Part shown: in pieces, positions 4,736 through 47,451 of the stretch
Layout of the letters: every line of letters begins with the position of its first letter
Numbering within the stretch: the stretch's first letter is position 1
NCBI GenBank assembly: GCA_964410505.1
Contig: CAYPGR010000003.1
Location: 31,809-95,808, forward strand
DNA length: 64,000 bases
Source: an uncultured Staphylococcaceae bacterium
Lineage (GTDB): Bacteria > Bacillota_I > Bacilli_A > RFN20 > CAG-826
Direction: 5' to 3'
The notes under the pieces: model-generated
What the model was told of the DNA's origin: nothing
Databases searched by the model: none
The model's input: only the letters and a program-made list of their open reading frames with translations
Translations under genes and position numbers: made by a program

Positions 4736-4799
4736 TCAATTACGCTTATTACCATCGTAAAATACACTTAAATTCATATAAATAGTATAATATATAATC

Positions 4800-5531
4800 A
4801 TGAATATAACTAAAAAGAATCTCCGACTGGTATTACGAATCGCCATTATCGTGATGGTGATTGCTGGCGTCATCGGGCAATATTTGAGTGGGATCCTCGT
4901 TGATAAAGGATGGAGCTCTTTACTTTTTTACACAACCCAAAGTAATTTACTGGTAGCGGCTACTTACTTATTCCTACTCATATACGAACTTAAAGATAAA
5001 AAGACGCCTCGCCTCATTATCATCTTTGAGCATATTGCTGTCAGTGCCACAACATTAACCTTTATTGTCTTTGCCCTATTCTTAGGACCTTATATCGCCA
5101 ATGTTCGCTATTTCTATTCACTCCAAAATTTGACGCTTCACAACTTAGTGCCAATTCTTTCAATCATCACTTATTTGATTGGGAAAGATACGGGTCAAAA
5201 ACGAATCATTCCCTTTGCCCTTATCAGTGGTTTTTCCTATCTCATCTTTGCATATCTTTTATATTTCCTTAAAGTCCCTTTTGGAAGTTTCGAATTCCCT
5301 TACTTTTTTATGGACTTTAATCAATATGGTTGGTTACGAATTCAAGGGATTAATTTCGGTGTCATATACTGGTGGATCACGATTGCCCTTTTATTATATG
5401 GAATCAGTTTTTTACTCTTCAAACTCAAAGAAAAAACAATCAATTCAAAAAAAGTCCCATTATATGTTTTCATTATTTTATTAGCGTTTGCGATATTGAT
5501 TACTTTAATAAACATTATAATAAAATTATAG
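4800..5531 (+). CDS. polytopic membrane protein, function unknown
   Basis: Multiple hydrophobic segments. No recognisable motif. Confidence 0.45.
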   Translation: MNITKKNLRLVLRIAIIVMVIAGVIGQYLSGILVDKGWSSLLFYTTQSNLLVAATYLFLLIYELKDKKTPRLIIIFEHIAVSATTLTFIVFALFLGPYIANVRYFYSLQNLTLHNLVPILSIITYLIGKDTGQKRIIPFALISGFSYLIFAYLLYFLKVPFGSFEFPYFFMDFNQYGWLRIQGINFGVIYWWITIALLLYGISFLLFKLKEKTINSKKVPLYVFIILLAFAILITLINIIIKL

Positions 5532-5547
5532 TAAAGGGGGTTTTTAT

Positions 5548-29357: not shown

Positions 29358-31223
29358 TTAGTTAAATCTCATCATTAATCTTTCTTTTATATAATCGTTT
29401 AGTGCTTTATCTTCACAAAAAATGAAACAACCTTTTTGACCTCGTGATAACAATGTTTTATATGTATTACGAATTATTCGATCAGCTAGTTCATAGTTTT
29501 TTGAAGACTTAATTCCTTTGAGGCTTGCGTCCGACTTAGCTCGCATTTTATAATCTGTGATAACGCGACCTTCTTCAAACCTCATATCTTTTCCGATGAT
29601 AATCCCGACATAGTCAAACTCTAAACCTTGTGCTGTGTGAATGCACCCCACTTCATCAAATGAATCTTCGTCAATCGCCCAAGTGCTTGTGGAAGAAAAG
29701 TTCCATTTAGCTTTAAATCCATTGATGAGATTAATGTCATAGAGTTGGTGAGTCGGTTTATTTTTCGTCACCCACTCATAACAATAGCCTGCAATCATCC
29801 TTGCTTTATTGTTGATATGGTTTAAGTTTCGTAATTCTTCTCTCATCAAAATAGGGTCATCAAAAACACGAATATCATAATCTAAATCGAAACCATCGTA
29901 GTTAGCAGTTTCTCTGATTCCTAGTAAATGATCTAAAAATGCAATATAACCATCACTACCATTACATCTAAATTGTGAGGTGAGTTTAAAGTCATCACCA
30001 CTAAAAACTTTACTACCAAGACGTTGCGCTTGTTTCTTAATTTCTAAAATACTGCCAAAATCCTTCGTAGTAACAATCTGATCCTCGTCGATGAAGAAGA
30101 CACTCACGCGTGCCGCATTAATGATTTCTCTAATTTGGTTTTCGCCTAAATTCATAAACATTCCCGATTTCTCGTTGAGTCGGTGCGCCTCATCTACAAC
30201 TAAGCAATCAAACTCATTTGGTTTCGAATCAACATAAGCTCCTGAGCCCTTAAACATATTTTTAACATAATTTAGCTTGTAATTTCCTTGTCGCATTTTG
30301 TTGAAATAGACATTTCGTGGAGCAGCATTCTTTGTAACATAATTAACCATCATACTCTTAAACTCTGCTAAAAGATTGATCGCAATTACACTTTTACCCG
30401 TTCCAGGTCCGCCCTCAACAATTACCGTATACTTATTATTTGTCTTAATAGCATCTTCAACTAACTTCTTAACGGTTGAAAAGACGACTTTTTGTTCATC
30501 AATCATATAAAATTCTTGATTACCAGCGATCATCGAAACAATCGCATCTTGAAGGGCTTTAGAAGGTCTAATTTTCCCATGATCAATTTGGTAAAGAACT
30601 TCACCATTGTCAGATTTTGAAACATATTTCTTAATGAACTCTCTTAATTTTAATACGTCTCTTTTTAAATACATCGGTGAAACTTCCAAAATATCTTTAT
30701 ATAGATCGTTGTCGAGTTCATGTCTGAACTCTTCTCGAAAGTTATGTAAAAAACAGCAAGGATACAATTGAATTTCACTATTTTGAACGAATTCATTATA
30801 ATTTTCGATTGTCTTGGCGTATGAATAAGCTTGATAAGAAGGATGCGTAACTGCACGCATTGAACCGGCCAGGAATGTCGTTACAATGTCTTTACGACTC
30901 GTTCTTTGAGCTTCTTCCCATTGCTTTAATTCAACAATAACAACATTACTATTATCTGACTCATCTTTTCCGGAAATAATAAAATCGACTCTTTTTGAAG
31001 TAGCAGGAATTTGATATTCAATCGCCACGCGAATGTCTGTATTAATCTCATTAAAATCTAACACATTTTTCATATGTAAAAGAGAGTTGTCCCAAGCACG
31101 AAACTCAGATTCGTTATTGTTTATGATGCTTCGTTTTCTTAGTTCGGATTTAATTAATTCGGCAATAATCCCATTATCAACATCACTACTAAACTTTGCA
31201 ATTGTTCCTGAGTATACAATCAT
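29358..31223 (-). CDS. DUF2075-like protein: an N-terminal PD-(D/E)xK nuclease fold fused to a P-loop SF1-type helicase/ATPase
   Basis: RVDFIISGKD...VVIVELKQW (D...ExK). Walker A GGPGTGKS. Walker B LVVDEAH. C-terminal HTAQGLEFDYV, an SF1 motif VI-like sequence. Confidence 0.65.
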   Translation of the reverse strand: MIVYSGTIAKFSSDVDNGIIAELIKSELRKRSIINNNESEFRAWDNSLLHMKNVLDFNEINTDIRVAIEYQIPATSKRVDFIISGKDESDNSNVVIVELKQWEEAQRTSRKDIVTTFLAGSMRAVTHPSYQAYSYAKTIENYNEFVQNSEIQLYPCCFLHNFREEFRHELDNDLYKDILEVSPMYLKRDVLKLREFIKKYVSKSDNGEVLYQIDHGKIRPSKALQDAIVSMIAGNQEFYMIDEQKVVFSTVKKLVEDAIKTNNKYTVIVEGGPGTGKSVIAINLLAEFKSMMVNYVTKNAAPRNVYFNKMRQGNYKLNYVKNMFKGSGAYVDSKPNEFDCLVVDEAHRLNEKSGMFMNLGENQIREIINAARVSVFFIDEDQIVTTKDFGSILEIKKQAQRLGSKVFSGDDFKLTSQFRCNGSDGYIAFLDHLLGIRETANYDGFDLDYDIRVFDDPILMREELRNLNHINNKARMIAGYCYEWVTKNKPTHQLYDINLINGFKAKWNFSSTSTWAIDEDSFDEVGCIHTAQGLEFDYVGIIIGKDMRFEEGRVITDYKMRAKSDASLKGIKSSKNYELADRIIRNTYKTLLSRGQKGCFIFCEDKALNDYIKERLMMRFN

Positions 31224-35393: not shown

Positions 35394-36266
35394 TTATTCA
35401 ATTTCTTCGTAATAATATGAAGTATCAACGCCTTTTAAAAATAGTTCTCTATTGTCAATCTCATCAGTCAAAGCGTTTTTAAGTATTCTTTTAATGTCCT
35501 CATCACTATTTGGACTAAGAGTCATCGCATCTAAATATTCTTTTTTCTCAATTTTTGACCAATCAACACAAACGCTCAATTCTTTCTTAAAGATTAAATC
35601 GACCCAAATACGTGTTGCCCGACCATTACCTTCCATGAAAGGGTGTGCAACATTCATTTCAATATATTTATTAACAATTTCATCAAATGTTGATTGCGGC
35701 ATTTTTTCAATTTCTCCTAAAATTTGAGGTAGAAAATCACCATTTGCAAAAACAAAACCACCTTTAGAAATCGTTTTGGTCCTTATCTTTCCAGCGAATG
35801 GGTATAGACCTTCAAATAGAAACGCATGTATTTTTAGGAGGCTGATTGTTTTCCCAATTTCATCATCTTGAATAAGATTTGATTTGAACACTTCATAGGC
35901 TTTTCTTTTGCTTTGCTCATCAAGGGGATCTAACATTCCGGTTAGCCAATTTTGAACAGCTAATTTATGTTTGGATGGCATGATTGTTACAAATAGACGC
36001 ACACCTTCTTCATTCATAACATCCGATAGGTATTTCTTGTTATCAGCAGCATATAATTTCAGTTGTCCACAAAATGAAGTCAACTCAGGATGTCTCATTT
36101 TAAACATGTTCCAATATCTTCTAGCATCACTAGAATCTAAAAGCACTTTTGTTAAATCAACAGCGGAGTACCACCATTGAGATTTGTCATGATCCCAAAC
36201 AGCTCTAACTGGTTGATTATTAAAATAGCGAATGGAATGTTTTATCATAATTAGATGATATAACAA
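35394..36266 (-). CDS. Fic-family protein (AMPylase fold) with an N-terminal Bro-N-like domain
   Basis: Fic motif HPFMEGNGRATR. N-terminus IRYFNNQPVRAVWDHDKSQWWYSAVDLTKVL resembles Bro-N. The annotated start is a TTG; an ATG lies 18 nt downstream. Confidence 0.7.
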   Translation of the reverse strand: MLYHLIMIKHSIRYFNNQPVRAVWDHDKSQWWYSAVDLTKVLLDSSDARRYWNMFKMRHPELTSFCGQLKLYAADNKKYLSDVMNEEGVRLFVTIMPSKHKLAVQNWLTGMLDPLDEQSKRKAYEVFKSNLIQDDEIGKTISLLKIHAFLFEGLYPFAGKIRTKTISKGGFVFANGDFLPQILGEIEKMPQSTFDEIVNKYIEMNVAHPFMEGNGRATRIWVDLIFKKELSVCVDWSKIEKKEYLDAMTLSPNSDEDIKRILKNALTDEIDNRELFLKGVDTSYYYEEIE

Positions 36267-36336: not shown

Positions 36337-36892
36337 AATCTAATGGAATTGTGTGACAGAAACGATTCAAAATCTAATTTGCGTTATTGAGAGTGATTGT
36401 GCTCCTCCCCTGGTCAACCTCCAATGTTTACAGGGGAACAATGTTGATTATGATGGCTATGACTATAGAAAATCGTTCTAGAGTCTAAAAAAATCCTCAA
36501 AAAAAGAAAAAAGTGTCCAAATAAAAAAAGGACTGATATTTATATATCAATCCAATCTCTCATTTTTGGAACCACACGTTTAGTTTGATACTTTGAATAC
36601 CCTAATAATTAACGAGTGAATACCTCTAGAACTATGATTCTTTTTTGACGCTATTTGACATAAGTAACGAATTTACTTTAAGGTGAACTGATACCAAAAA
36701 CCTGTACTTTAACTTCCTTGTAATTACTACATGGTTTATAGATAAATCACTCTATACTCATAAATCCTTTAGCTGTAAATGCCATCATATAAATGTAGGA
36801 AATTGACGGTCGAAAATGTAGGTTTCTTACGGGTATGCTTTTCTTTTTGATAAACTTTTTCTAACTCACGATTAGAAAGGTTTAGAAATTAA

Positions 36893-38095
36893 ATGAGAAG
36901 AGACTTATATGAAAGGATGGTATTTATGAAAAACCATGGTGAAGAGCCAAATTATGCCGAACTAGCTCGCCGCTATAACTGCGACTATCGGACGGTAAAA
37001 CGCTACTTTGAGGGTGACGGATCACTCAAAGAGAGAAAAAAGAATCCGTCGAAACTTGATAAATTTAAAGAAATTATTGAGGATAAACTGGAACTTGGTT
37101 GTACGTATGCTTCAATCTATCACTTTATTAAAAAGCTTGGTTATGACGGTAAGTATACAATTGTTCGTGAATATGCGAATAAAGTGATAGTGATCAAAAC
37201 AAAGAAAGCAACCGTTCGTTTTGAAACGATGCCAGGATTACAAGCACAAGTTGATTGGAAAGAACACCTAACCATGATTAGTCGTGAAGGCGAGGTCTTC
37301 ACCGTGAATATCTTCCTTCTTGTTCTTGGTTATTCACGTTTAAAATTTCTAAAGCTGACCCTTGACCGTAATCAAGACACTCTAAAGGAGGCGCTGGTAG
37401 AAGGGTTCAAGTATATAGGTGGAATTCCAAAAGAGATTCTCTTCGATAATATGAAAACTGTGATTGATCAAAGTCGTTCGCACTTCATGGACGCGGTTGT
37501 TAACGAGGACTTCTACGCCTTTAGTAAGGATATGGGTTTCGAGGTAATTGCTTGTCGCGCTTATCGCCCCGAAACAAAGGGAAAAGTTGAAGCACTCGCT
37601 AAGTTTACAAGCCGCCTTCAACCTTACAACCACGACTTTGTTTCCCTTGATGAATTAAATGAAATTGTCAAAATGGTCAATGATGACATAAATCACGAAA
37701 TATCCCAAGCGACAAACGAAATCCCTCTCACTCGTCATAAAAATGAAAAAGAATACTTATTACCCTTACCACGCGCTGAACTTCTTCTTAACTTCCTTAC
37801 TAAACCACTAACAAGAATCGTTACGAAGGAGTCACTCATTACGTATCAGAATAACAAATATTCCTTGCCCCCTTATTATATCGGAAAAACTTTAACGATT
37901 AAACCATCCGCTGTTAACCTCGATATTTTTGATAACGGTGTCCTCATTATGCGCCACCCCCTCTCAAATAAAAAATACAACTACAAAAAAGAACATTATA
38001 TTGAAATTCTTAAAAGTGATGCCCTCCCCTTTAAAAATGATGATGATATTAATCGCATCGCCGAAAAGAATTTAAAACTCTACGATAATCTCTAA
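36893..38095 (+). CDS. istA: IS21-family transposase IstA
   Basis: N-terminal HTH (ELARRYNCDYRTVKRYF). DDE region typical of IstA. Confidence 0.8.
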   Translation: MRRDLYERMVFMKNHGEEPNYAELARRYNCDYRTVKRYFEGDGSLKERKKNPSKLDKFKEIIEDKLELGCTYASIYHFIKKLGYDGKYTIVREYANKVIVIKTKKATVRFETMPGLQAQVDWKEHLTMISREGEVFTVNIFLLVLGYSRLKFLKLTLDRNQDTLKEALVEGFKYIGGIPKEILFDNMKTVIDQSRSHFMDAVVNEDFYAFSKDMGFEVIACRAYRPETKGKVEALAKFTSRLQPYNHDFVSLDELNEIVKMVNDDINHEISQATNEIPLTRHKNEKEYLLPLPRAELLLNFLTKPLTRIVTKESLITYQNNKYSLPPYYIGKTLTIKPSAVNLDIFDNGVLIMRHPLSNKKYNYKKEHYIEILKSDALPFKNDDDINRIAEKNLKLYDNL

Positions 38096-38112
38096 AAGGA
38101 AAGAACACCAAA

Positions 38113-38868
38113 ATGTCCCATTATAATCAACTTATTAATAATTTAGATAACCTTAAACTCTTGAAAATGCGCGAACTCCTTCCCGCTTATCTTGATGATG
38201 CTATTATTAAAAACAAATCATTTGTTGATATTTTTAAAGAACTAACCGATCAAGAAGTTGCTTTCCGCGAAGAACGCGCACGCCTTATTAATCTTACTAT
38301 TTCGCATTTCCCCTATCACAAACGTCTCGATGATTTTGATTTTGGCTACCAACCGTCCATTAATAAAACCCAGATTCTCGATCTTGCTTCGCTTCGCTTT
38401 GTTGAACAGGTTGAAAATATCCTCCTTATCGGCAACTCCGGTGTCGGCAAAACGCACCTTGCTACCGCGCTTGGCATTGAAGCTTCCAGTAAACGCGTCT
38501 CGACCTATTTTATCCACTTTAATACACTCATGCAAAAGTTTAAAGTCGCCGCGAGTGAAGGTACCGTCGACAAAGTTGTTAAACATTATCTAAAATACAA
38601 ACTGCTTATCGTCGACGAAGTTGGCTATCTTCCTGTTGATAAAGATGCCGCGAATGGTTTCTTTCAGCTTGTCGCCGCTCGCTATGAAAGACGACCGCTA
38701 ATTATTACATCAAATTTACCACTTTCTAAATGGGGCGATGTCTTTGGTGATTATACAATCGCTAACGCTATTATTGATCGCCTTGTTCATCATTCTCACA
38801 TTATCAAAATAACCGGGCAATCCTACCGCATCAAAGGTAAACTCCAATTTGAAAATGACGAGGACTAG
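38113..38868 (+). CDS. istB: IS21-family helper ATPase IstB
   Basis: Walker A GNSGVGKTHLA and Walker B LLIVDEVGY. 17-nt spacing after istA. Confidence 0.85.
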   Translation: MSHYNQLINNLDNLKLLKMRELLPAYLDDAIIKNKSFVDIFKELTDQEVAFREERARLINLTISHFPYHKRLDDFDFGYQPSINKTQILDLASLRFVEQVENILLIGNSGVGKTHLATALGIEASSKRVSTYFIHFNTLMQKFKVAASEGTVDKVVKHYLKYKLLIVDEVGYLPVDKDAANGFFQLVAARYERRPLIITSNLPLSKWGDVFGDYTIANAIIDRLVHHSHIIKITGQSYRIKGKLQFENDED

Positions 38869-39088
38869 TCCTCGTCATTTACCTACATTTTCAACCGCTA
38901 TAAACCAACATAAATTTCTTGACAATTACAAATACGCACAGTTGTATAGACCGTTGGAATGAGCCCCATTAGCAATAAGGCAAGTAGGAGGCGGTAATTT
39001 ATTTTTTTAATTGATTTAGATATATTGCGCATCATTAATCTTTATTTTAGCAATGTATTTAAAGGAAAAATAGATATTTTTTTTATAG

Positions 39089-40084
39089 TTATTCTTGATA
39101 TCCCAGTTTTATTAATAACCCACCAATTAATGGACAGATGTTATTTGAGTTAGTTAACAAACTATTAATACCCAATAAGGAACATATTTTATTTGCTCTG
39201 CGTTTATTAGTATCTATGTAGCAGGTGGATACTCTATCTACATGCAGGGTTATTTTCCACTTGTTATCTGTTGTTTGTTCCTCTTTAAACATAATTTGCT
39301 GTACTAGTTCATGGATTTTCAATTTATATAATATTTCTTTTCCATTATTCTCATTTAAGCCAATAAGAAAATCTTTAATGGCGATTTCTTCTTTATTCTC
39401 TATTATTTTCTCATGGGCTAGGCTAGCGGCTTGTAAGAGTGCATCTACTTTAGTATCAGAAATTCCCTCTATCTCATAATTGCCAAACTTTATTGTTGCC
39501 CTATAAAAACCGTTGCCCTTGTTCTCGAGGAGCTTAAAAGAATAGGTTAACTTATTATGTTTTTTTACTTTGCACCATCTTTTAACATATAAAAAAGAGG
39601 CAAACCCTTTGTAATTAATTTGTGTTCTATGAAACAACAAATTATTCACTAAATCGTAAAGCTTAATTTGATTAAAATTAGAATCAATAGCGATGGAGCC
39701 TACAACGCTCTCGAGTAAATCTCCTCTATAAGATCTTTGGATTTGTTCATTAGGGCTTAATCTAATATAGTGTTCGAACCCCAACTTATGTATGATAGAA
39801 GCGAGATTTTCATTCTCGACAATTAGTGATTTAAGAAATGTCAATTCTCCTGGATTAAATACGCTTTTTAGACCTTGACTATCATTTGACATTATTTGAT
39901 CAAATAGAATTTTTGTAACGTGATATTCGATGACTCTATCACCAATAAATTCTAGTACTTCAGAATTAAGCTCTTTTGATTCATTTGAAAATGAACTTCT
40001 CGTAAATGCTTGTCTCAAAAGCGCTTTATTTTTGAATTCGTAATCTAATTCTTTTTCAATTTGAATAATATCTTTTTCATCCAC
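39089..40084 (-). CDS. RNase III-family protein with two C-terminal dsRBD-like modules
   Basis: RNase III signature ALLRQAFTRSS...EVLEFIGDRV. Second catalytic segment GDLLESVVGSIAID. dsRBD-like segments GNGFYRATIKFGNYEIEGISDTKVDALLQAASLA and NKWKITLHVDRVSTCYIDTNKRRANKICSLLG. Confidence 0.55.
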   Translation of the reverse strand: MDEKDIIQIEKELDYEFKNKALLRQAFTRSSFSNESKELNSEVLEFIGDRVIEYHVTKILFDQIMSNDSQGLKSVFNPGELTFLKSLIVENENLASIIHKLGFEHYIRLSPNEQIQRSYRGDLLESVVGSIAIDSNFNQIKLYDLVNNLLFHRTQINYKGFASFLYVKRWCKVKKHNKLTYSFKLLENKGNGFYRATIKFGNYEIEGISDTKVDALLQAASLAHEKIIENKEEIAIKDFLIGLNENNGKEILYKLKIHELVQQIMFKEEQTTDNKWKITLHVDRVSTCYIDTNKRRANKICSLLGINSLLTNSNNICPLIGGLLIKLGYQE

Positions 40085-40184
40085 AATGACAAATCAATCC
40101 CCTAGAGTAAATTTATTATGATAAAACTATTTTTTAAGGCGACCTTTAAGAATCAACACTTTCGTTAATTTTAAGAACCATCAG

Positions 40185-41213
40185 TTAATTAGTAACTTCA
40201 GGTATCTCCGTTAGTCTTTTTCCATTAAATTTAAAATAAAGAGGGCCTTGATATGCTCCACTACTATTCACCTTTCCTAAACGAGTAAATAGTTCTCTTG
40301 TTAATGGCGATAAGTACCAGAGCCTACCTTCAAACATGACTTTTCGTTCATTTTCAACATAGGCAACAAAGGACTCGTTTTCAGCAAAGACAATCTCCGC
40401 CCCTTTTTTAATACCTCTTTTAAAGAAATTAAAACGCGTATTGACTTCTTCTCCATTCGTCTTATCTACCTGCTCATTGCCGCTATTTTTAATGTCTCTA
40501 GCAGCGCCAGATACAGAAACCTCAGTAATATCTTCAATGATTTTGACAAATTTAGATAATTTAATACCTTTTCCTATTTCAACATTCAAAAAATCTTTAC
40601 CTGTGGCTTCGAAGGCGAGATTTTTAATAGAATAATTTTTTAAATCATCTCCATACCGGATGCCAAACATATGCAGCATAGTCATTTGATAGCCATCAGG
40701 AGCCTCATTGTACATTTTTTTTAAAATTTCCAAGTATTCATTATAGGTCAAATGACCATTTCCTTTTGGGAGGTCTTGGAATAGAAAATTTTGTATTATT
40801 TTCTTGTTTTCTGGCCAGGCTTTAATATCCGTGAGTTGTATACTTTCAGAGTCAAAATCGAAAAATAAAAATGGGAGATTGTCTTTAGAAATCTTGAGTA
40901 AATTGTCAATATTCTTTTTTGTTTTTCGTTTGTTTTCATGGAATTTATTTGATTGCACGCTGGACATTTTCAGCAAAGTATTAAAATCGTTTGTATTTTC
41001 AATGCTAAAGTTGGAATCAAGAAAATGATTAATCGTTTCAAAAATAGCAATGTCATATATCCTATTTGATTTACTCTCCCTGATATATTTTTTGATAATT
41101 TGAGCAACTATATCATCATATGTAATTTTGACAGAATATGGATCCATCCTTTCGTCTATCAGGTCAATCAATGCACTAAAGACGTTTCTTTGGAGCGTAT
41201 TTGCGGTTTGCAT
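40185..41213 (-). CDS. hypothetical protein (342 aa), co-operonic partner of the SMC-like ATPase
   Basis: ORF. 1-nt gap to the upstream 119-aa gene. Confidence 0.4.
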   Translation of the reverse strand: MQTANTLQRNVFSALIDLIDERMDPYSVKITYDDIVAQIIKKYIRESKSNRIYDIAIFETINHFLDSNFSIENTNDFNTLLKMSSVQSNKFHENKRKTKKNIDNLLKISKDNLPFLFFDFDSESIQLTDIKAWPENKKIIQNFLFQDLPKGNGHLTYNEYLEILKKMYNEAPDGYQMTMLHMFGIRYGDDLKNYSIKNLAFEATGKDFLNVEIGKGIKLSKFVKIIEDITEVSVSGAARDIKNSGNEQVDKTNGEEVNTRFNFFKRGIKKGAEIVFAENESFVAYVENERKVMFEGRLWYLSPLTRELFTRLGKVNSSGAYQGPLYFKFNGKRLTEIPEVTN

Positions 41214-41214
41214 A

Positions 41215-41574
41215 TTAAATTATATCCACTATGGTCCAATCTTTATTATTATTGATGATATCCAGTATCTTATCTAAACCTATACTTATTACTGCTCTAA
41301 GTGCATAATCTTCATCTTTTACGTCATCATGATACAACCTAATTAACGTCCTAAAAAATTTGTCACCATCAAAATCTTCCATATGCCATTTGTTGTTTTT
41401 AAAACTGCCTTTGTATTCGTCTAGTGGCTTGTACTGGCTTAAATCAACCCTAGACAAGGCGTAACTAGCTGCAAATTTCGCTGTCGTCTTATCGTCATCA
41501 AAATATCCTTTTTCTTTAAGTTTGGCAATGCATTCATCATTGTCAACTGAAATGTTAATATCTGCTAGTGGCAT
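41215..41574 (-). CDS. small hypothetical protein (119 aa), co-operonic partner of the SMC-like ATPase
   Basis: ORF. 1-nt gaps on both sides. Confidence 0.4.
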   Translation of the reverse strand: MPLADINISVDNDECIAKLKEKGYFDDDKTTAKFAASYALSRVDLSQYKPLDEYKGSFKNNKWHMEDFDGDKFFRTLIRLYHDDVKDEDYALRAVISIGLDKILDIINNNKDWTIVDII

Positions 41575-41575
41575 A

Positions 41576-43600
41576 TTATTTCTCCCTTACATTGGTATTG
41601 AAGGAATTTCCTTCTTGATATATCTCTAATTCCTTTATTAGTTTATTACCTAAAATTGCTCTGGTTTTACTAATATCAATTTTGTCGTTATGAATCAGCA
41701 AAATCAACTGTGGTGCGATTTCATTAAATGTTTTTATTATGTTGTTTGTGTATGAATTTTGAAGAACTGAAAAGGCTGCATCAAAAAATATGGTGCCAAA
41801 TAATTGAGAGTTGTGGTTTAAACCAAAAATTAATGATAATGCTAATAAAGTATTGTATCCCGTTCCGGGAATGGGCATAATTGAATCGTCCTTCATTACA
41901 ATTTTCATGCGATAGTTTTCATTTATATGAATTTGTTTAATATCTTGATTTTCGCCCTCGATAAATTTCATGAAAATATCACTTGAAGAAATTTGAACTT
42001 TTTGTCTCATGGTAGAGATAAACTGTTCTTTAGAATTTTTGTAGGTCGTTCGCACATGATCAATTGTCTTAAGTTCATTTTCAAGATCACTAGTATCAAA
42101 ATCAGTTCCCATTTTCTTTATTAGAGCTGTAATTTTTCCATTTAATCTTTCATAATCTTTAATCAGGTTTTCATTTAGCGTTGTCTCCCATTTGCTGATT
42201 AGATTTTCTGACTGAGTTTTTTTCATAAATGCGTCCTTAAAATAGGTGTTTAAATCTGAGCCGCTTGAACTTAATTCATCACGTGTTTTTTTAGCATCGT
42301 TAAGAAGACTATGTCTTTTATTTTCGTACATGATTAAATCTTCTTGGTAACTTCTTAGCGTTTTGTCGTTAAAAAATGTCAGTTCAGAAAGTATTTTAGT
42401 AAATTTGACTATTTTATTGTTGGAATATTCATATGAAGTCATCTCGTCGCTCGATAAGGAACTTTGAGAGATTTTAAACTTGATTTCATCAACCTTGGAT
42501 TTAAAGAAAACTATTTTTTCTAAGGGTAAGTGACTACCACAATACTGACAAGTATCATTATTCAGTAGATCCTCATATGTTTTTAATTCAACTCTAAATT
42601 TATTAATTATTTGGTGTCGGTCGGAGATAAGAGAGAATTTTTCTTCCATCGTTTTAATCTCTTGTATAATTTTCGAATATTGCAGAGATTTTATATTTTC
42701 TTTTAGAAAGTTTTTAATGTCCGTTTTTCTTGATTTAATCAATGCTTCAGTGGAATTAATCTCTTTTTCAATTTTTTCCAAGTATTTGTAGGCAGCGATT
42801 TTTCTACCATTAGCGTCAAGATCTTCATTTAAACGAGTTAACTCCTCTTTTTCCTTTTCAATTTTCCTGTTTAAATCGTCAATCTCTTTCTTTTTTAAAC
42901 TCAATTCTTGTTGCTTATCCTGCAATTCTTTCTTGTCATTTTCATTTTTTGAATTTCTATTTACGATGGAAGAAATTTGATAATAGGTTTGACTATAAAG
43001 ACTGTCTAAACGAGCAATGATTCTATCAATAAATGGGGTTCCGATAATCTTGTTAATAGCTTCTTTAATTCTTCTATTTTCAGTGCCAGTAGCACTATCA
43101 TTGTTGAGAATTTCAATGTATTTTTCAATGTTTTCTCCATCAAAAAGCATAAATTCAGAGATGTCTTTTGGAATTATTTTATCAATGATATCTTGTGTAT
43201 ATTTCTCTGATTGATATTGACCATCTTCTTGCAATGTCATCGTCATCTTAAAATCATTGTCTGATTTAGGTTTTCCCATCACGTTTGAGTCAAAATTATA
43301 CTCTCTTTTCATCTTGTAAGTTTTACCATTATAGATAAACTCCATATATGCATAGAATCTATAATCTTCATTCTCGTAAGCAATTTTGTTTATAGATAAT
43401 GAAATTTTATAATTTGGGTCGTCGGGATTGTCTTTAAGATAGTTAAAAAGCAAAAACCGAATACCATTGATAAATGAAGTCTTTCCAGTATTATTATTAC
43501 CAAAAATTATAGAGGTTCCTTTATTAGATCCTAAATCAAATTCCTTGACTCCATAGTAGGGAATAAAGTTTTTGAATGATATCTTGAGTATCTGTATCAT
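41576..43600 (-). CDS. SMC/Rad50-like ABC ATPase with a long coiled-coil and a central CxxC hook-like motif
   Basis: N-terminal Walker A GNNNTGKTS. Long K/E-rich helical middle region. CQYC near the midpoint. C-terminal Walker B / D-loop IFFDAAFS. Confidence 0.7.
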   Translation of the reverse strand: MIQILKISFKNFIPYYGVKEFDLGSNKGTSIIFGNNNTGKTSFINGIRFLLFNYLKDNPDDPNYKISLSINKIAYENEDYRFYAYMEFIYNGKTYKMKREYNFDSNVMGKPKSDNDFKMTMTLQEDGQYQSEKYTQDIIDKIIPKDISEFMLFDGENIEKYIEILNNDSATGTENRRIKEAINKIIGTPFIDRIIARLDSLYSQTYYQISSIVNRNSKNENDKKELQDKQQELSLKKKEIDDLNRKIEKEKEELTRLNEDLDANGRKIAAYKYLEKIEKEINSTEALIKSRKTDIKNFLKENIKSLQYSKIIQEIKTMEEKFSLISDRHQIINKFRVELKTYEDLLNNDTCQYCGSHLPLEKIVFFKSKVDEIKFKISQSSLSSDEMTSYEYSNNKIVKFTKILSELTFFNDKTLRSYQEDLIMYENKRHSLLNDAKKTRDELSSSGSDLNTYFKDAFMKKTQSENLISKWETTLNENLIKDYERLNGKITALIKKMGTDFDTSDLENELKTIDHVRTTYKNSKEQFISTMRQKVQISSSDIFMKFIEGENQDIKQIHINENYRMKIVMKDDSIMPIPGTGYNTLLALSLIFGLNHNSQLFGTIFFDAAFSVLQNSYTNNIIKTFNEIAPQLILLIHNDKIDISKTRAILGNKLIKELEIYQEGNSFNTNVREK

Positions 43601-43794
43601 ACGTTTGACCTTTTCTTGTTGTAAGAATCAATTAGTTGCTTAATGCTATTGTTTTTTTCTTGATCGGAGGCATTATTAAGTTCAATATCTAGAATATTTG
43701 TCAACAGCAAAAAATAATTTTCATCAGCATTTGACATTTCCTCCAAAGTTTCTTTAATGTTTTTAATCGTTTTTTCATTCATCTTCAAAACCAT
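43597..43794 (-). CDS. small ORF (65 aa), translationally coupled between the helicase and the SMC-like ATPase genes
   Basis: ATGA overlap with the downstream gene start. Overlaps the upstream gene's stop by 20 nt. Confidence 0.3.
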   Translation of the reverse strand: MVLKMNEKTIKNIKETLEEMSNADENYFLLLTNILDIELNNASDQEKNNSIKQLIDSYNKKRSNV

Positions 43795-46132
43795 CCTCTT
43801 CGTTATTTATTTTTTCAATATCTAAATTGTTTTTTATTGCCAATTCCTCAATACTCAACATAGATGTGGCACTATTAAATGAAGCCTTGGCAAAAATTAT
43901 TGCTCTTTTCAACTCGTACTTTAAAAATGTGAATTCATCTCCGGAAGATTCCAGATTTTCAGGCGAAACAATCGCATCAAAAATATGGGCAAACTGTTTG
44001 TTTTTATGCTTTCTTAATACCCTCCCACGTCTTTGAATAAATTGTCTCTCATTTTGACTTGAGGCCAGCACTAAGGCATGGTCTATGCTGGGAATGTCAA
44101 CTCCCTCATCCAAACAATTAATTGACAGTAAAACTCCTCCATTTCTCTCGAAAACTTCAAGAACTTGGTTATGTAACCCACTCTTTGAATGATAAATAAA
44201 CAAGTCGTTATGAAACAATCTACTAAGTTTTGATTCAAGTTGGTTCTTGATTTCTTCTAACTGTTCAATGTCATCACAGTATATTAACCATCTTTGACCT
44301 GGAAGATAATGGTCTTCAATAATCTTAAGGGTCAACAAAATTTTAGCCTTAGCTTTTTTGATAATTTTTGATCTTTGGATTAGCCATTGCTTCATAATTG
44401 AATCAGATAAAATATCGAAAATTGAGTATTTTTGAGATTTGAGCAATGCAAATCTGCGAGCAATTTTGGTTGATAGTTCTTGATATTCAACGCCCTCTAT
44501 AAGATCAAGTTCAACTTTTTGGGGGTAATAAAGATAATTGCATAAAGATTTATCTCTAATAGCATTTTCTAAAGAATAAGGATAGTCGATAACCTTTCCA
44601 AAAAAATCAAAGATCTTTTTTGTTCCAATTGAGTCTCTATACCTTTTAGGAGTAGCGCTCAACCCTATCTTTGAACCCACATTGATGGTTAATAAATTAC
44701 TGTATTTTTCCGATCCAGAATTATGAACTTCATCAATCACCAGCAACAAATGATTTCCTTGGCAAAGTAAGTTAATAAAATTGTTATTGCTAGCTGTTTG
44801 GATTGTACTTAAAATAATTTTTCTTTTGCCTGTAATTGAGGAAGCAATCTTGAGATTTGTAGTGCTGTCATTTCCATTCCCATATTGATACAAGAATACA
44901 TCGTCGCCGAATACTTTTTCAATTTCTTCTTTCCACTGTTCAAATAAAATGCTCCTTGGCACAATTATAATTGGGATTTGATCATGGAGATAAATGGCAT
45001 CTCTAATTGCGCAAAAAGCAGTAAATGTTTTTCCGCTTCCCGTGGCCATTTCAAAAATTCCGACTCGATTGTTTTTAACCCAATTATCAAGAATGGTCTC
45101 TTGGTAATTCCTTATCTTACGGCGGTTTAGCCCCGGCTCTGCCGCCCATCTAATTACTGTAATTTCTCGCTCGTCCAATGTTTGATTTGTGTAGTTGGAC
45201 TTGAGAACTATTTTTTGATTTCCATAAGAAATAGCTTGAATTGTGTGTTTATCATTATCTAATACAAGTATTTTATGGTCATCAACAAGTTCAATGACTA
45301 CATCATTAAGACTAGAACAATGTAAAACCCCAATTTTAGCAACTTCGCCAAGAACCAAATCAGAATATTGTATGTCAATTCTTGGCGATTTTTCATCAAT
45401 ATGTCCTAACTCAATTGTGACCTCATCGATTAATTCACGGACATTTTTGTCGTTACTGAGCGCACGAAATTTATCTTTCGTAACTTTCGGAATTTCAAAA
45501 GTATGAATACCTTTTTCATCTCCTCGCCAAATGTTATTAAATCTTTCTTTGTAAATACTAACTCTTTTAATCTCTGATGCATCACCCCAGGAAGTATTAA
45601 CCTCAAAGACTTCACTATTGCCAAATTCTGAGACACCTTTGTAAGTTTCATTGATTGATCCACCAAAACTAACTGTGTTCCCATTTACATCATGAAATAA
45701 ACCAACTTTATCGTGAAGCAGTTTGAATGCCAAAGGGTTGTCGCCAAAAACCGCCATTTTTATTTCAAGTATTCCCAATGAGATTAGATTAGAAAGTAAA
45801 GTTGTAGTTTTAGGATATTGCTTGCTCATTTCATCAATAACTTCATTGAATTTATTTGATGAGGAATCTAGTGATTTAAAATACCCGGAAATTATGGCGT
45901 CATAATCCTCGTCAGTTATTATAGGGGAGCATACAATACGTATTTTTCCATTATTTTGAACAAAATCTTTTAAGGCATCCTTGATAACAAGGAAAACAGA
46001 ACTGCCAAAATAGCCCGTGATTCTATCATATTTAATTGAAGATTCTAAACAGGGTTTATAAAAATCTCGATAGATTTCATTTCTAGTTTTGTAATATATT
46101 TGGTGAAAATTATGCTTGTCGAGGGTTTGCAT
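43775..46132 (-). CDS. restriction-type enzyme: N-terminal PLD-family (HKD) nuclease fused to an SF2 (type III res-like) helicase
   Basis: PLD motif LLHDKVGLFHD...GGSINET. Helicase motif I MATGSGKTFTA, motif II LLVIDEVHN, motif III LSATPKR and motif VI QRRGRVLR. The start is assigned to MQTLDK, 7 nt after the methyltransferase stop. Confidence 0.7.
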   Translation of the reverse strand: MQTLDKHNFHQIYYKTRNEIYRDFYKPCLESSIKYDRITGYFGSSVFLVIKDALKDFVQNNGKIRIVCSPIITDEDYDAIISGYFKSLDSSSNKFNEVIDEMSKQYPKTTTLLSNLISLGILEIKMAVFGDNPLAFKLLHDKVGLFHDVNGNTVSFGGSINETYKGVSEFGNSEVFEVNTSWGDASEIKRVSIYKERFNNIWRGDEKGIHTFEIPKVTKDKFRALSNDKNVRELIDEVTIELGHIDEKSPRIDIQYSDLVLGEVAKIGVLHCSSLNDVVIELVDDHKILVLDNDKHTIQAISYGNQKIVLKSNYTNQTLDEREITVIRWAAEPGLNRRKIRNYQETILDNWVKNNRVGIFEMATGSGKTFTAFCAIRDAIYLHDQIPIIIVPRSILFEQWKEEIEKVFGDDVFLYQYGNGNDSTTNLKIASSITGKRKIILSTIQTASNNNFINLLCQGNHLLLVIDEVHNSGSEKYSNLLTINVGSKIGLSATPKRYRDSIGTKKIFDFFGKVIDYPYSLENAIRDKSLCNYLYYPQKVELDLIEGVEYQELSTKIARRFALLKSQKYSIFDILSDSIMKQWLIQRSKIIKKAKAKILLTLKIIEDHYLPGQRWLIYCDDIEQLEEIKNQLESKLSRLFHNDLFIYHSKSGLHNQVLEVFERNGGVLLSINCLDEGVDIPSIDHALVLASSQNERQFIQRRGRVLRKHKNKQFAHIFDAIVSPENLESSGDEFTFLKYELKRAIIFAKASFNSATSMLSIEELAIKNNLDIEKINNEEDGFEDE

Positions 46133-46139
46133 TTTCGTC

Positions 46140-47006
46140 CTACACTGGATTCCGATTTGAAATATTATGAATAGACATCTGACAAAACTCTTCAGAAATT
46201 TCAAAACCGATAAATTTCCTGTTATTATTAAGCGCGACCACTCCAGTTGTTCCACTTCCAGTCCATGGATCAAGTACGATATCGCCCTCCTGCGTACATG
46301 CTCGAATATACCTTTCGGGCAAGTAATTCGGTTGGACAGCTTGATGATTGACCACTTTTCCTGATACTGCACCACTAATCACATTTATCGGTAATGCACC
46401 TAGAGGGTTAGGAAAAATTTTCTTTTCTTTTGTGACATATTGCAATTTATTCTGCCTTGGTTTATAAATCACATTCTCATAGGATTTGATAGAAGATTCT
46501 TTGTAAGGTCTTCTAATCTGATCTATATTGATAACCCATTTTGAGGATTTAGAAAACCACAGGTTATACTCATAAGCATCAATCGTCGCAACTCTTACTC
46601 CTGTGGGAACAGGATTTGTTTTTGCCCAGATTTCAATATCAACACAATACAATTTTAGTACCTTTTTCATATGAATCATTAGTTCTTCGATGACTAACGA
46701 TCGCTCCGATGATGTGGTTTTTGTTCCTTGAACTCGATTTGATTTGACATTAATGACAATAAATCCATCATCAGTTAATTTTGGAATTAAAAACTTAATA
46801 AATGGGCTTATTTCTTTTATATAGTTTTCAATCTTCCATGTTCTATAGTTTCTTTTTGCATTTGGATAAGGAGGTGACCCATAAACTAATTTTATGGACT
46901 TATCTTTCAGATGCTTTATGAGTTTTACACCGTCTCCGTGGGTAACAGAAAAATTACGACTATCTAAATCTTCGTATATGTTGATAGTAGTATTTTGGTG
47001 TAACAT
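46140..47006 (-). CDS. beta-class DNA methyltransferase (N4-cytosine / N6-adenine type)
   Basis: Motif IV GSPPYPN near the N-terminus and motif I LDPWTGSGTTGVVA near the C-terminus. Confidence 0.8.
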   Translation of the reverse strand: MLHQNTTINIYEDLDSRNFSVTHGDGVKLIKHLKDKSIKLVYGSPPYPNAKRNYRTWKIENYIKEISPFIKFLIPKLTDDGFIVINVKSNRVQGTKTTSSERSLVIEELMIHMKKVLKLYCVDIEIWAKTNPVPTGVRVATIDAYEYNLWFSKSSKWVINIDQIRRPYKESSIKSYENVIYKPRQNKLQYVTKEKKIFPNPLGALPINVISGAVSGKVVNHQAVQPNYLPERYIRACTQEGDIVLDPWTGSGTTGVVALNNNRKFIGFEISEEFCQMSIHNISNRNPV

Positions 47007-47364
47007 TTAATTAATACTCCCCACTTTATATAAAAATCTTTTTATGTAATTCAAATTATACCATCATACACGGTATTAAAGAACTGTATACTTATCAAAT
47101 TGATGATTTTGAGTGGTGAATTAAATAGAAAACACAAAATAAACAACAAAAATAAACGCACATTGCACAATGGGACAGTTAATATTCTTACTAATTAACC
47201 CTCTTTTTCGCACTGTTTATTAAGAAATTGAAAAAAATACTCTTTCTATTTAATCTTTGATATCTAACGAATCATAAGAAATATATTATACTTGAATATC
47301 CTAAGAAAAAACCCTTATATCTCAACCTTATTAGGTCCAATATCTTGGGGTATCTTCATTAGTT

Positions 47365-47451
47365 TGGTGCCTCCGGTCGGACTCGAACCGACACAGTATC
47401 GCTACTATTGGATTTTGAGTCCAACGCGTCTACCAATTTCACCACGGAGGC
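47365..47451 (-). tRNA. tRNA-Leu (anticodon CAA), long variable arm, CCA encoded
   Basis: Reverse complement is GCCTCCGTGGTGAAATTGGTAGACGCGTTGGACTCAAAATCCAATAGTAGCGATACTGTGTCGGTTCGAGTCCGACCGGAGGCACCA. Confidence 0.85.

What the first reader, a model, noticed from the sequence alone, without database searches (positions are those of the whole stretch)
39089..40084. RNase III catalytic domain followed by two dsRBD-like modules, encoded at the edge of the defence island
The protein carries both RNase III signature segments (EVLEFIGDRV and GDLLESVVGSIAID). These are followed by two regions with the dsRBD pattern of beta strands ending in a basic/Ala-rich helix. The protein is 331 aa, whereas canonical bacterial rnc is about 230 aa with one dsRBD and sits near smc/ftsY. 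This gene is separated by 100 bp from the ATPase operon, on the same strand, next to IS21. An RNase III paralogue inside a mobile defence island could be an RNA-targeting effector or a phage-derived gene.
Basis: partly seen in the sequence, partly recalled or inferred. Interest (0 to 1): 0.55.

Follow-up and report, generated by a model that had tools for sequence, protein, structure and literature searches.

The report
Accessory RNase III with two dsRBDs
This is a real, probably active extra copy of the double-stranded-RNA-cutting enzyme RNase III with two RNA-binding modules instead of one; it belongs to a large unstudied bacterial family that keeps turning up next to anti-phage genes and mobile elements, but it is not part of the neighbouring ATPase system and no defence role has been shown.

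Summary
ORF 39089-40084 (-) encodes a 331-aa protein with an RNase III catalytic domain in which all five acidic catalytic residues are invariant. Two dsRBD folds follow it, supported by AlphaFold2 (pLDDT 89.7), by a profile-profile match between the two modules, and by profile matches to Loquacious, R2D2 and TARBP2.

It is not a canonical Rnc: it scores 103.6 bits on TIGR02191 against a cut-off of 166. Its GC is 30.5% against about 40-42% in the flanking genome, so it was probably acquired horizontally.

It is not a component of the upstream Pbe/CxC-ABC operon. A 96%-identical orthologue lacks Pbe and sits after a different gene. Homologues at 25-59% identity follow type I R-M, Z1/Dcm, SNF2-methylase and helicase systems, or prophage ends.

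The family has about 988 clusters at 50% identity, mostly 320-400 aa, mainly in Bacillota. PADLOC has no model for it, and I found no paper on it.

Best reading: a stand-alone, island-borne dsRNA endonuclease acting in host-mobile-element conflict. The defence role is inferred from neighbours only. The main rival is that the gene merely flanks an integration hotspot. Whether the MAG also has a canonical rnc could not be tested.

The parts
39089..40084 (-). Complete ORF of the RNase III paralogue (331 aa, GTG start; NCBI MFA5660023.1, 'ribonuclease III domain-containing protein')
   Evidence: dN/dS is 0.21 against the 96% orthologue.
39632..40084 (-). RNase III catalytic domain (aa 1-151) with E42, E45, D49, D122 and E125, and a beta-hairpin insertion at aa 65-74
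39398..39613 (-). dsRBD1 (aa 158-229). It has the alpha-beta-beta-beta-alpha fold, but the KKxAK RNA-contact motif is degenerate (TKVDA).
   Evidence: (dsrm at 19.9 bits)
39155..39343 (-). dsRBD2 (aa 248-310). It has the alpha-beta-beta-beta-alpha fold and keeps a basic NKRRANK motif. In the wider family this is the module Pfam recognises as dsrm.
39107..39133 (-). Short C-terminal helix (aa 318-326) after dsRBD2, conserved in the 331-aa clade
40085..40184 (-). 100-bp spacer upstream of the gene, with GGGGA about 14 nt before the GTG. No sigma-70-like promoter lies wholly within the spacer, there is no intrinsic terminator, and there is no stable leader fold.
38930..40452 (-). 1.5-kb block shared at 95.9% nucleotide identity with loci L095/L096. 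It holds the last ~89 codons of the upstream gene, the spacer, the RNase III gene and the first 41 codons of the downstream gene. Everything outside the block is unrelated between the two contexts.
38913..39035 (-). Context: 5' stump (41 codons) of a MATE-like membrane-protein gene that follows RNase III intact in L095. Here the IS cuts it off.
36774..38930 (+). Context: IS21-family element (IstA 36893-38095, IstB 38113-38868) with 50-nt imperfect inverted ends. No target-site duplication is present, so it marks a rearrangement junction.
40185..41213 (-). Context, not part of the RNase III unit: a 342-aa protein with an HTH_73 domain and a PDC-S57-type C-terminal domain. The C-terminal ~120 aa are shared (73% aa identity) with a T5orf172/PDC-S57 protein that precedes RNase III in L095.
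41215..47006 (-). Context, not part: a Pbe/CxC-ABC defence operon. It comprises an N6/N4 methylase (46140-47006), PbeA HKD+SF2 helicase (43775-46375 as listed), PbeC (41576-43600) and a 119-aa protein (41215-41574, presumed DndE/PbeD cognate, not confirmed).

Best explanation
The gene encodes a stand-alone, horizontally acquired accessory RNase III with the architecture RNase III domain - dsRBD - dsRBD.

Like other class-1 RNase III enzymes, it should form a homodimer with one composite catalytic valley and cut both strands of double-stranded RNA with Mg2+. This is inferred from the conserved catalytic residues and the fold. The canonical-looking second dsRBD, held away from the catalytic core by a degenerate first dsRBD, should lengthen the duplex footprint and favour long perfect dsRNA. 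This too is inferred.

The gene is not a subunit of the adjacent Pbe/CxC-ABC system. It is an independent cassette that persists while neighbouring cargo is swapped. This is shown by comparison of loci.

Its most likely biological role is in conflict between host and mobile elements. It would destroy or process dsRNA made by invading phages or other elements, for example from convergent or antisense transcription. That role rests on neighbourhood only and is unproven.
For: - Domains and catalytic residues.
- Structure and second dsRBD.
- Purifying selection, dN/dS 0.18-0.31.
- Foreign composition, 30.5% GC against 40-42% in the flanking genome.
- Independence from Pbe: the 96% orthologue shares only a 1.5-kb block and follows a PDC-S57 gene instead.
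- Cassette behaviour: in the 58% clade, homology of 81-91% starts 62-190 bp upstream of the ATG and ends about 0.9 kb after the stop, with unrelated flanks.
- Neighbourhoods: of 14 distinct contexts examined in the 331-351-aa clades, 11 have recognised defence genes next to the gene. These include Pbe, PDC-S57, PDC-S46, type I R-M, Dcm-HATPase-Z1-DUF4420, SNF2 with a D12 methylase, SLFN-g3/UvrD helicases, PLD-helicase with GmrSD, Mrr, Abi_2 and an OLD-like ATPase. Two more are (pro)phage-like elements, one ending in holin genes and one in a recombinase pair.
- Family size: about 988 clusters at 50% identity with E <= 1e-30, mostly full-length at 320-400 aa.
Against: - There is no experimental or literature support for a defence role. 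PADLOC has no model for the protein.
- No conserved partner gene exists across the family.
- In the wider GTDB sample many neighbours are housekeeping genes.
- In several loci the gene sits exactly at the junction between a serine-recombinase element or prophage and host genes. A passive flanking gene would look the same.
- dsRBD1 has lost most RNA-contact lysines.
- Dimerisation and substrate preference were not tested.
Confidence: 0.5

Rival explanations
1. Passive neighbour. The RNase III paralogue has an ordinary RNA-processing or regulatory role, and it simply flanks a preferred integration site for serine-recombinase elements, prophages and defence islands. Defence genes then pile up beside it with no functional link, much as cassettes accumulate next to rlmH/orfX or tRNA genes.
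For: - In IMG/VR loci L102-L110, two large serine recombinases lie directly upstream of the gene. In L107, host sugar-nucleotide genes lie downstream.
- In L101 a prophage tail and holin module ends just upstream, and housekeeping genes follow.
- L002 and L007 begin with a serine recombinase, an HTH_17 gene and a DnaD-like gene at the far end of the cargo.
- A conserved junction motif, TGTATGTGAACG, marks the left edge of the conserved block in the sister clade.
- Downstream neighbours in the GTDB sample are often housekeeping genes.
Against: - In the window the gene has island-like GC (30.5%), not the 40-42% of the flanking genome. Here it is cargo rather than a resident flanking gene.
- In the sister clade both sides of the 2-kb cassette vary.
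- Window and L095 share only the 1.5-kb block at 96% identity, with a breakpoint inside the upstream ORF rather than at a fixed site.
- Defence genes also occur on the downstream side.
Confidence: 0.28
2. The gene serves the mobile element rather than the host. It might process or silence antisense-regulated toxin transcripts of the island, in the way B. subtilis RNase III silences prophage type I toxins. Or it might act as an anti-defence factor that destroys dsRNA or guide-RNA intermediates of host immunity, as the RNase III enzymes of ascoviruses and giant viruses do (own knowledge).
For: - The gene is linked to recombinase-bearing elements at similar nucleotide identity across the recombinases and the RNase III gene.
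- The closest viral structural matches are multi-dsRBD RNase III proteins of giant viruses and ascoviruses.
- PemK-like and Fic genes lie downstream in L013.
Against: - No type I toxin or antisense pair was identified near the gene.
- No close relatives exist in phage or plasmid collections.
- No structured RNA was found in the flanks.
Confidence: 0.14
3. It is an added effector or subunit of the adjacent Pbe/CxC-ABC (SMC-like ATPase) defence operon and is co-transcribed with it.
For: The gene is on the same strand with a 100-bp gap. No sigma-70-like promoter lies wholly within the spacer, and no terminator was detected.
Against: - The 96% orthologue has no Pbe genes nearby.
- None of the other neighbourhoods contains PbeA or PbeC.
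- The reappraisal of Pbe/CxC systems lists an HKD-SF2 protein, a small protein, the CxC ATPase, DndE and methylases, and never mentions RNase III.
Confidence: 0.04
4. It is the organism's only, housekeeping RNase III, merely with an extended C-terminus.
For: - The full MAG could not be inspected.
- Some long (415-444 aa) RNase III genes in Oscillospirales occupy the same conserved context as 250-aa ones and look like the resident rnc.
Against: - TIGR02191 scores 103.6 bits against a cut-off of 166.
- GC is about 10 points below the flanking genome.
- The gene is embedded in mobile, defence-rich DNA whose flanks differ in a 96%-identical relative.
- No smc, ftsY or acpP-type neighbours are present.
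- RNase III is near-universal in bacteria (PMC5303251), so a separate canonical copy is expected.
Confidence: 0.04

Closest known systems
Canonical bacterial RNase III (Rnc; e.g. Aquifex aeolicus, E. coli, Thermotoga structures)
   Same: It has the same catalytic domain and acidic residues, followed by a dsRBD. These are the top Foldseek matches, at E 7.5e-12 and weaker. It aligns over the whole TIGR02191 model.
   Different: - It has an extra C-terminal dsRBD and helix (331 aa against about 220-250).
- It has a beta-hairpin insertion in the catalytic domain.
- Its first dsRBD is degenerate.
- It scores below the equivalog cut-off.
- It has foreign GC and island or mobile-element context rather than housekeeping synteny.
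Budding-yeast Dicer (Dcr1) and plant RNASE THREE-LIKE 2 (own knowledge)
   Same: They share the architecture of one RNase III domain followed by two dsRBDs. As homodimers they act on long dsRNA, and in eukaryotes that activity feeds antiviral and transposon silencing.
   Different: - These are eukaryotic proteins, and Dcr1 has an N-terminal dimerisation domain that is absent here.
- No Argonaute or other small-RNA machinery was seen near the bacterial genes.
- Whether the shared architecture reflects common descent or convergence was not tested.
Mini-III (MrnC)
   Same: It is a second RNase III-fold enzyme found in Bacillota.
   Different: Mini-III has no dsRBD and is about 130-140 aa (own knowledge). 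This protein has two dsRBDs.
RNase III proteins of giant viruses and ascoviruses
   Same: They combine an RNase III domain with one or more dsRBDs, and they are the best matches in the viral structure library (E 1.5e-12 to 2e-7). They illustrate RNase III used in virus-host conflict.
   Different: They come from eukaryotic viruses, share 13-20% identity, are longer multi-domain proteins, and work for the virus rather than the host.
Uncharacterised Bacillota 'ribonuclease III domain-containing protein' family (RNase III-dsRBD-dsRBD, 320-400 aa)
   Same: The window protein is a member. It shows full-length profile matches, the same three modules and the same invariant residues.
   Different: The window's 331-aa clade is a small, divergent branch with roughly a dozen sequences. 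Its dsRBD2 no longer reaches Pfam dsrm significance on its own.

Membership tests
Canonical Rnc (TIGR02191 equivalog) | RNase III catalytic domain with signature E-x-x-E-F-x-G-D and D-x-x-E acidic residues | tested here: met
   E42, E45, D49, D122 and E125 are invariant. Pfam PF14622 and PF00636 both match.
Canonical Rnc (TIGR02191 equivalog) | Score at or above the curated equivalog cut-off | tested here: not met
   103.6 bits against a cut-off of 166.25
Canonical Rnc (TIGR02191 equivalog) | Single C-terminal dsRBD, about 220-250 aa in total | tested here: not met
   331 aa with two dsRBD folds. Canonical examples L083 (232 aa) and L038 (250 aa) end after dsRBD1.
Canonical Rnc (TIGR02191 equivalog) | Housekeeping genomic context and host-like composition | tested here: not met
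   The neighbours are Pbe genes, a PDC-S57-like gene and an IS21-family element. GC is 30.5% against 40-42%.
Canonical Rnc (TIGR02191 equivalog) | Being the sole RNase III of the genome | not testable with these tools
   Only one contig of the MAG is accessible. The single genome-collection scan did not return this genome.
Mini-III | RNase III domain alone, no dsRBD | tested here: not met
   Two dsRBDs are present.
Pbe / CxC-ABC defence system | Conserved co-occurrence with PbeA (HKD-SF2), PbeC (CxC ABC ATPase) and DndE | tested here: not met
   These genes are absent from all 13 other contexts examined, including the 96% orthologue. RNase III is not listed among components in PMC10853773.
Bacterial RNase III-dsRBD-dsRBD family (uncharacterised) | Full-length homology over the catalytic domain, dsRBD1 and dsRBD2 | tested here: met
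   Twelve homologues show 41-96% identity at 99-100% coverage, and more distant ones cover 70-92%. Domain HMMs hit all three modules across loci. There are 988 clusters at E <= 1e-30.
Known anti-phage defence systems (PADLOC-DB v2) | Match to a model of a described or candidate defence protein | tested here: not met
   The only hit is a 15-bit, E 0.003 partial match to PtuB.
Known anti-phage defence systems (PADLOC-DB v2) | Experimentally shown protection against phage | not testable with these tools
   No paper was found.
Phage-encoded RNase III | Presence in bona fide phage genomes | tested here: not met
   Nine weak partial hits of 24.8-31.7% identity in 50,697 phage records, none covering 80% of the query. 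There are 31 IMG/VR loci; in the largest related group (L102-L110) the gene directly follows two serine recombinases, with host genes beyond it in L107. A PHROG match covers the catalytic domain only.

The most novel reading that the evidence does not exclude
The RNase III-dsRBD-dsRBD family is a previously unrecognised single-gene bacterial immune nuclease. It would be a prokaryotic counterpart of Dicer-type antiviral dsRNA recognition: carried in defence islands and mobile elements of Bacillota, it would detect and cut long dsRNA produced during phage infection.
Probability: 0.3. Interest if true: 0.8.

Novelty: new variant of a known kind. Interest (0 to 1): 0.5.

Why it matters
RNase III is treated as a single-copy housekeeping enzyme in bacteria. 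Direct dsRNA-targeted innate immunity is regarded as a eukaryotic trait.

Here a sizeable bacterial family has a second dsRBD, is horizontally mobile, and recurs beside restriction, Abi-like and helicase systems. That makes the question of whether bacteria use RNase III-type dsRNA cleavage in conflicts with phages or other mobile elements directly testable. The test objects are small single genes with obvious catalytic knock-out mutants.

If the association proves passive, the result is still useful. It would identify a recurrent integration hotspot for serine-recombinase elements and defence cargo in gut Bacillota.

The work also corrects the local annotation. The Pbe/CxC system ends before this gene, and an IS21-family element has reshaped the island.

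Tried and rejected
- **Pbe link.** The idea that RNase III belongs to the Pbe operon is rejected by comparative context and by the literature.
- **Self-regulating leader.** I looked for a leader hairpin like that of E. coli rnc. The window spacer folds no better than shuffled sequence (z = 0.14). The sister-clade leader shows no covariation.
- **Promoter and terminator scan** of 38700-40500. No sigma-70-like site lies wholly within the 100-bp spacer, and no terminator was found. Whether the gene is co-transcribed with its upstream neighbour stays open.
- **Conserved partner gene.** The 222-238-aa 'fam4' gene follows RNase III only in the 58% clade. It has no remnant in the window and no Pfam or PADLOC match. 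All-against-all clustering of neighbours found no family present in more than 11 of 91 loci.
- **Rfam scan** of five sister loci found nothing.
- **Phage and plasmid collections** returned only distant canonical rnc genes.
- **Look-up of cluster member P0087** failed.
- **Genome-collection scan** did not return the window's own genome, so the 'second rnc' test could not be run.
- **The GTGTTGCACATAT motif** from sister loci is absent from the window.
- **Aggregated PADLOC and Pfam scans** of neighbours in 68 loci report counts per family only. No per-locus enrichment statistic could be derived.

Full report
**1. The observation**

The ORF at 39089-40084 (minus strand, GTG start, 331 aa) is real. 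It contains EVLEFIGDRV at aa 42-51 and GDLLESVVGSIAID at aa 121-134.

- Pfam finds the two RNase III models at 5e-15 and 6e-14. It also finds a sub-threshold dsrm match at aa 171-225.
- NCBIfam's Rnc equivalog aligns end to end with aa 10-227 but scores only 103.6 bits against a cut-off of 166.25.
- The best sequence matches in the PDB are Dicer RNase IIIb and bacterial RNase III.
- In alignments of 13 close and 52 wider homologues, E42, E45, D49, D122 and E125 are invariant. They line up with ERLEFLGD and EDLFES of canonical Rnc genes. The enzyme is therefore very probably catalytically competent.

**2. The second dsRBD**

An AlphaFold2 model built on the 52-sequence alignment has mean pLDDT 89.7. 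It shows four parts:

- a helical RNase III domain (aa 1-151);
- an alpha-beta-beta-beta-alpha module at 158-229;
- a second alpha-beta-beta-beta-alpha module at 248-310;
- a short terminal helix.

Foldseek against the PDB returns Aquifex and E. coli RNase III and Dicer, DCL3 and DCL4. A profile-profile comparison of the two modules gives 94% probability and E 1.2e-7. A profile of the C-terminal module hits the dsRBDs of Loquacious, R2D2, TARBP2, RDE-4, PKR and Staufen at 1e-10 to 1e-7. Pfam dsrm is detected in 12 of 17 homologous C-terminal segments, though not in the window's own.

From the sequence, dsRBD2 keeps a basic NKRRANK motif in place of KKxAK, whereas dsRBD1 (TKVDA) has lost most of it.

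**3. Surroundings in the window**

The window comes from an NCBI MAG labelled 'Bacilli bacterium', where this protein is named 'ribonuclease III domain-containing protein'.

Upstream on the same strand lie, in order:

- tRNA-Leu (47365-47451);
- an N6/N4 DNA methylase;
- PbeA (HKD plus SF2 helicase);
- PbeC (a DndD-like ABC ATPase);
- a 119-aa protein;
- a 342-aa protein with HTH_73 and a PDC-S57-type C-terminal domain.

According to PMC10853773, Pbe systems consist of the HKD-SF2 protein, a small protein, the CxC ABC ATPase, a DndE cognate and often methylases. RNase III is not mentioned.

Downstream, 159 bp past the stop codon, an IS21-family element (36774-38930) begins. Its IstA and IstB are homologous to those of IS5376. 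It has no target-site duplication, and it truncates a MATE-like gene after 41 codons. Beyond it lie a Fic protein (PDC-S04), an ABC transporter, a 396-aa multi-pass membrane-protein ORF (not annotated) and an SLFN-g3/DUF2075 helicase.

The whole 29-47 kb stretch is GC-poor. The RNase III gene itself is 30.5% GC, against 40-42% in the flanks of the window.

**4. The gene is independent of the Pbe operon**

A 96%-identical orthologue (P0001, loci L095/L096) follows a 213-aa T5orf172/PDC-S57 protein and precedes an intact MATE-like gene. No Pbe genes are present.

At the DNA level the window and L095 share only 40452-38930, which is 1526 bp at 95.9% identity. This block holds the last ~89 codons of the upstream gene, the spacer, the RNase III gene and the first 41 codons of the downstream gene. 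Everything else is unrelated between the two contexts.

**5. Relatives elsewhere**

The 331-aa clade at 53-59% identity sits about 100-240 bp downstream, on the same strand, of completely different cargo:

- an SLFN-g3 helicase with a UvrD helicase and an Eco57I-type gene;
- MTaX1-Dcm-HATPase_c_3-Z1-DUF4420;
- a type I R-M system with DUF2971 and DUF3800;
- an SNF2 helicase with a D12 methylase and DUF7226;
- an AAA_30 helicase.

Two of these loci begin with a large serine recombinase, an HTH_17 gene and a DnaD-like gene.

Pairwise blastn shows that homology (81-91%) begins 62-190 bp before the ATG, at a shared TGTATGTGAACG motif. It ends about 0.9-1.0 kb after the stop, taking in one conserved 222-238-aa gene of unknown function. 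The flanks are unrelated. This is a 2-kb cassette.

The more distant clade of 336-351 aa (25-34% identity) shows the same habit:

- PLD-helicase, Dcm and GmrSD upstream;
- Mrr and the Z1 system upstream, with PemK-like and Fic genes downstream;
- PLD/DpnI_C and Abi_2 upstream, with an OLD-like ATPase downstream;
- a prophage tail and holin module upstream, with housekeeping genes downstream.

A 49% relative is followed by PDC-S46.

In IMG/VR, a group of related contigs carries two tandem serine recombinases directly upstream of the gene. In the one locus that extends further, host sugar-nucleotide genes lie beyond it.

**6. Size and spread of the family**

A profile search of 1.84 billion representatives finds 988 clusters at E <= 1e-30. 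The best 150 are mostly 320-400 aa and match over the full length.

In GTDB genomes the relatives occur in Clostridia, Bacilli, Mycoplasmatota and some Spirochaetes, including cultured isolates. HMMs for the three modules hit most of them.

Their neighbours are highly variable.

- Upstream, helicases, methylases, Z1, recombinases, Mob_Pre and integrases are the commonest families, but housekeeping genes also occur.
- Downstream genes are heterogeneous.
- Some 415-444-aa forms in Oscillospirales share a conserved context with 250-aa forms and look like the resident rnc.

**7. Selection and origin**

dN/dS is 0.18-0.31, so the gene is under purifying selection. In the sister-clade loci the gene's GC matches that of its roughly 30%-GC surroundings. 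In the window it is about 10 points below the surrounding genome. This argues for horizontal acquisition from a low-GC lineage.

There are no close relatives in phage or plasmid collections. In the viral structure library only giant-virus and ascovirus RNase III proteins match.

**8. Interpretation**

- *Shown:* a divergent RNase III with intact catalytic residues and two dsRBD folds. It is horizontally acquired and behaves as an independent cassette in defence-rich, mobile DNA. It is not part of Pbe.
- *Inferred from the biochemistry of the family:* homodimeric, Mg2+-dependent cleavage of dsRNA. The extra, more canonical dsRBD2 would extend the duplex footprint.
- *Inferred from neighbourhood only:* a role in host-mobile-element conflict, most simply the destruction of invader dsRNA.
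- *Main rival:* the gene merely flanks an integration hotspot for serine-recombinase elements and prophages. The recombinase-adjacent and prophage-end loci support this for some clades. The GC contrast and the variability on both flanks argue against it in the window.
- *Other rivals:* a role serving the element, either silencing type I toxins or countering host defence, is possible but has no specific support. The 'only rnc' scenario is unlikely but could not be excluded directly.

**9. Novelty**

PADLOC has no model for the protein. Ten of the 85 homologous clusters carry a source name, all either 'hypothetical protein' or 'ribonuclease III domain-containing protein'. Literature searches found no description of a bacterial RNase III with tandem dsRBDs or of RNase III as defence-island cargo. 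It is best filed as a new variant of a known kind of enzyme. It is a candidate, not a demonstrated, conflict or defence gene.

Noticed in passing
window 36774-38930: An IS21-family element (IstA/IstB) with 50-nt imperfect terminal inverted repeats has no target-site duplication (flanks TTAGC and AATAC). It truncates a MATE-like gene after 41 codons, and the rest of that gene is absent from the window. This points to an IS-mediated deletion or rearrangement that joined two island segments.
   Followed up: partly
window 40185-41213 (-); L095 723-1364: The 342-aa protein looks chimeric. Its N-terminal part carries HTH_73. Its last ~120 aa are 73% identical to the C-terminal domain of a T5orf172/PDC-S57 protein that precedes RNase III in the 96% orthologue's locus. 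The DNA homology breakpoint (40452) lies inside the ORF.
   Followed up: partly
window 41215-47451: A Pbe/CxC-ABC system lies directly beside tRNA-Leu and is coupled to an N6/N4 methylase rather than to phosphorothioation genes. No integrase is present. The listed PbeA ORF (GTG at 46375) overlaps the methylase ORF by 236 nt, so the true start is probably the internal ATG near 46135 (MQTLDKHNF...). The 119-aa protein is presumed to be the DndE cognate but matched no model.
   Followed up: partly
window 29358-31223 (-); L002 1502-3379: The island's SLFN-g3/DUF2075 helicase is 80% identical to the one in the serine-recombinase element of L002, which also carries the RNase III cassette. A 34%-identical one sits directly upstream of RNase III in L001. 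The helicase and the RNase III gene thus co-occur within 10 kb in 3 of about 9 contexts of the 331-aa clade.
   Followed up: partly
L001 9926, L002 9822, L004 1538, L005 9927, L007 9823: A TGTATGTGAACG motif marks the left edge of the conserved RNase III cassette in otherwise unrelated upstream sequences. L002, L004 and L007 carry a 115-bp insert flanked by GTGAACG(C/G)C repeats. This may be an att core or an insertion scar.
   Followed up: partly
L001 14676-14938, L008 8290-8556, L003 7475-7743, L009 9643-9924: A conserved non-coding element of about 270 bp, with three GTGTTGCACATAT-like boxes, lies 3-6 kb downstream of RNase III in four sister loci. It has no Rfam match and is absent from the window.
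   Followed up: partly
L102-L110 (IMG/VR), about 4770-7660: Two tandem large serine recombinases (about 438 and 529 aa) lie directly upstream of the RNase III homologue in a group of related (pro)viral contigs. Nucleotide identity is similar across the recombinases and the RNase III gene.
   Followed up: partly
window 35394-36266 (-): A Fic-domain protein gives a full-length match to the PADLOC candidate PDC-S04 (E 1e-117). A Fic protein also lies two genes downstream of RNase III in L013.
   Followed up: no
GTDB loci downstream of RNase III homologues (alignment A8): Thg1-like (tRNA-His guanylyltransferase family) genes occur among the three nearest downstream genes in three loci. This was the commonest downstream Pfam family.
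   Followed up: no
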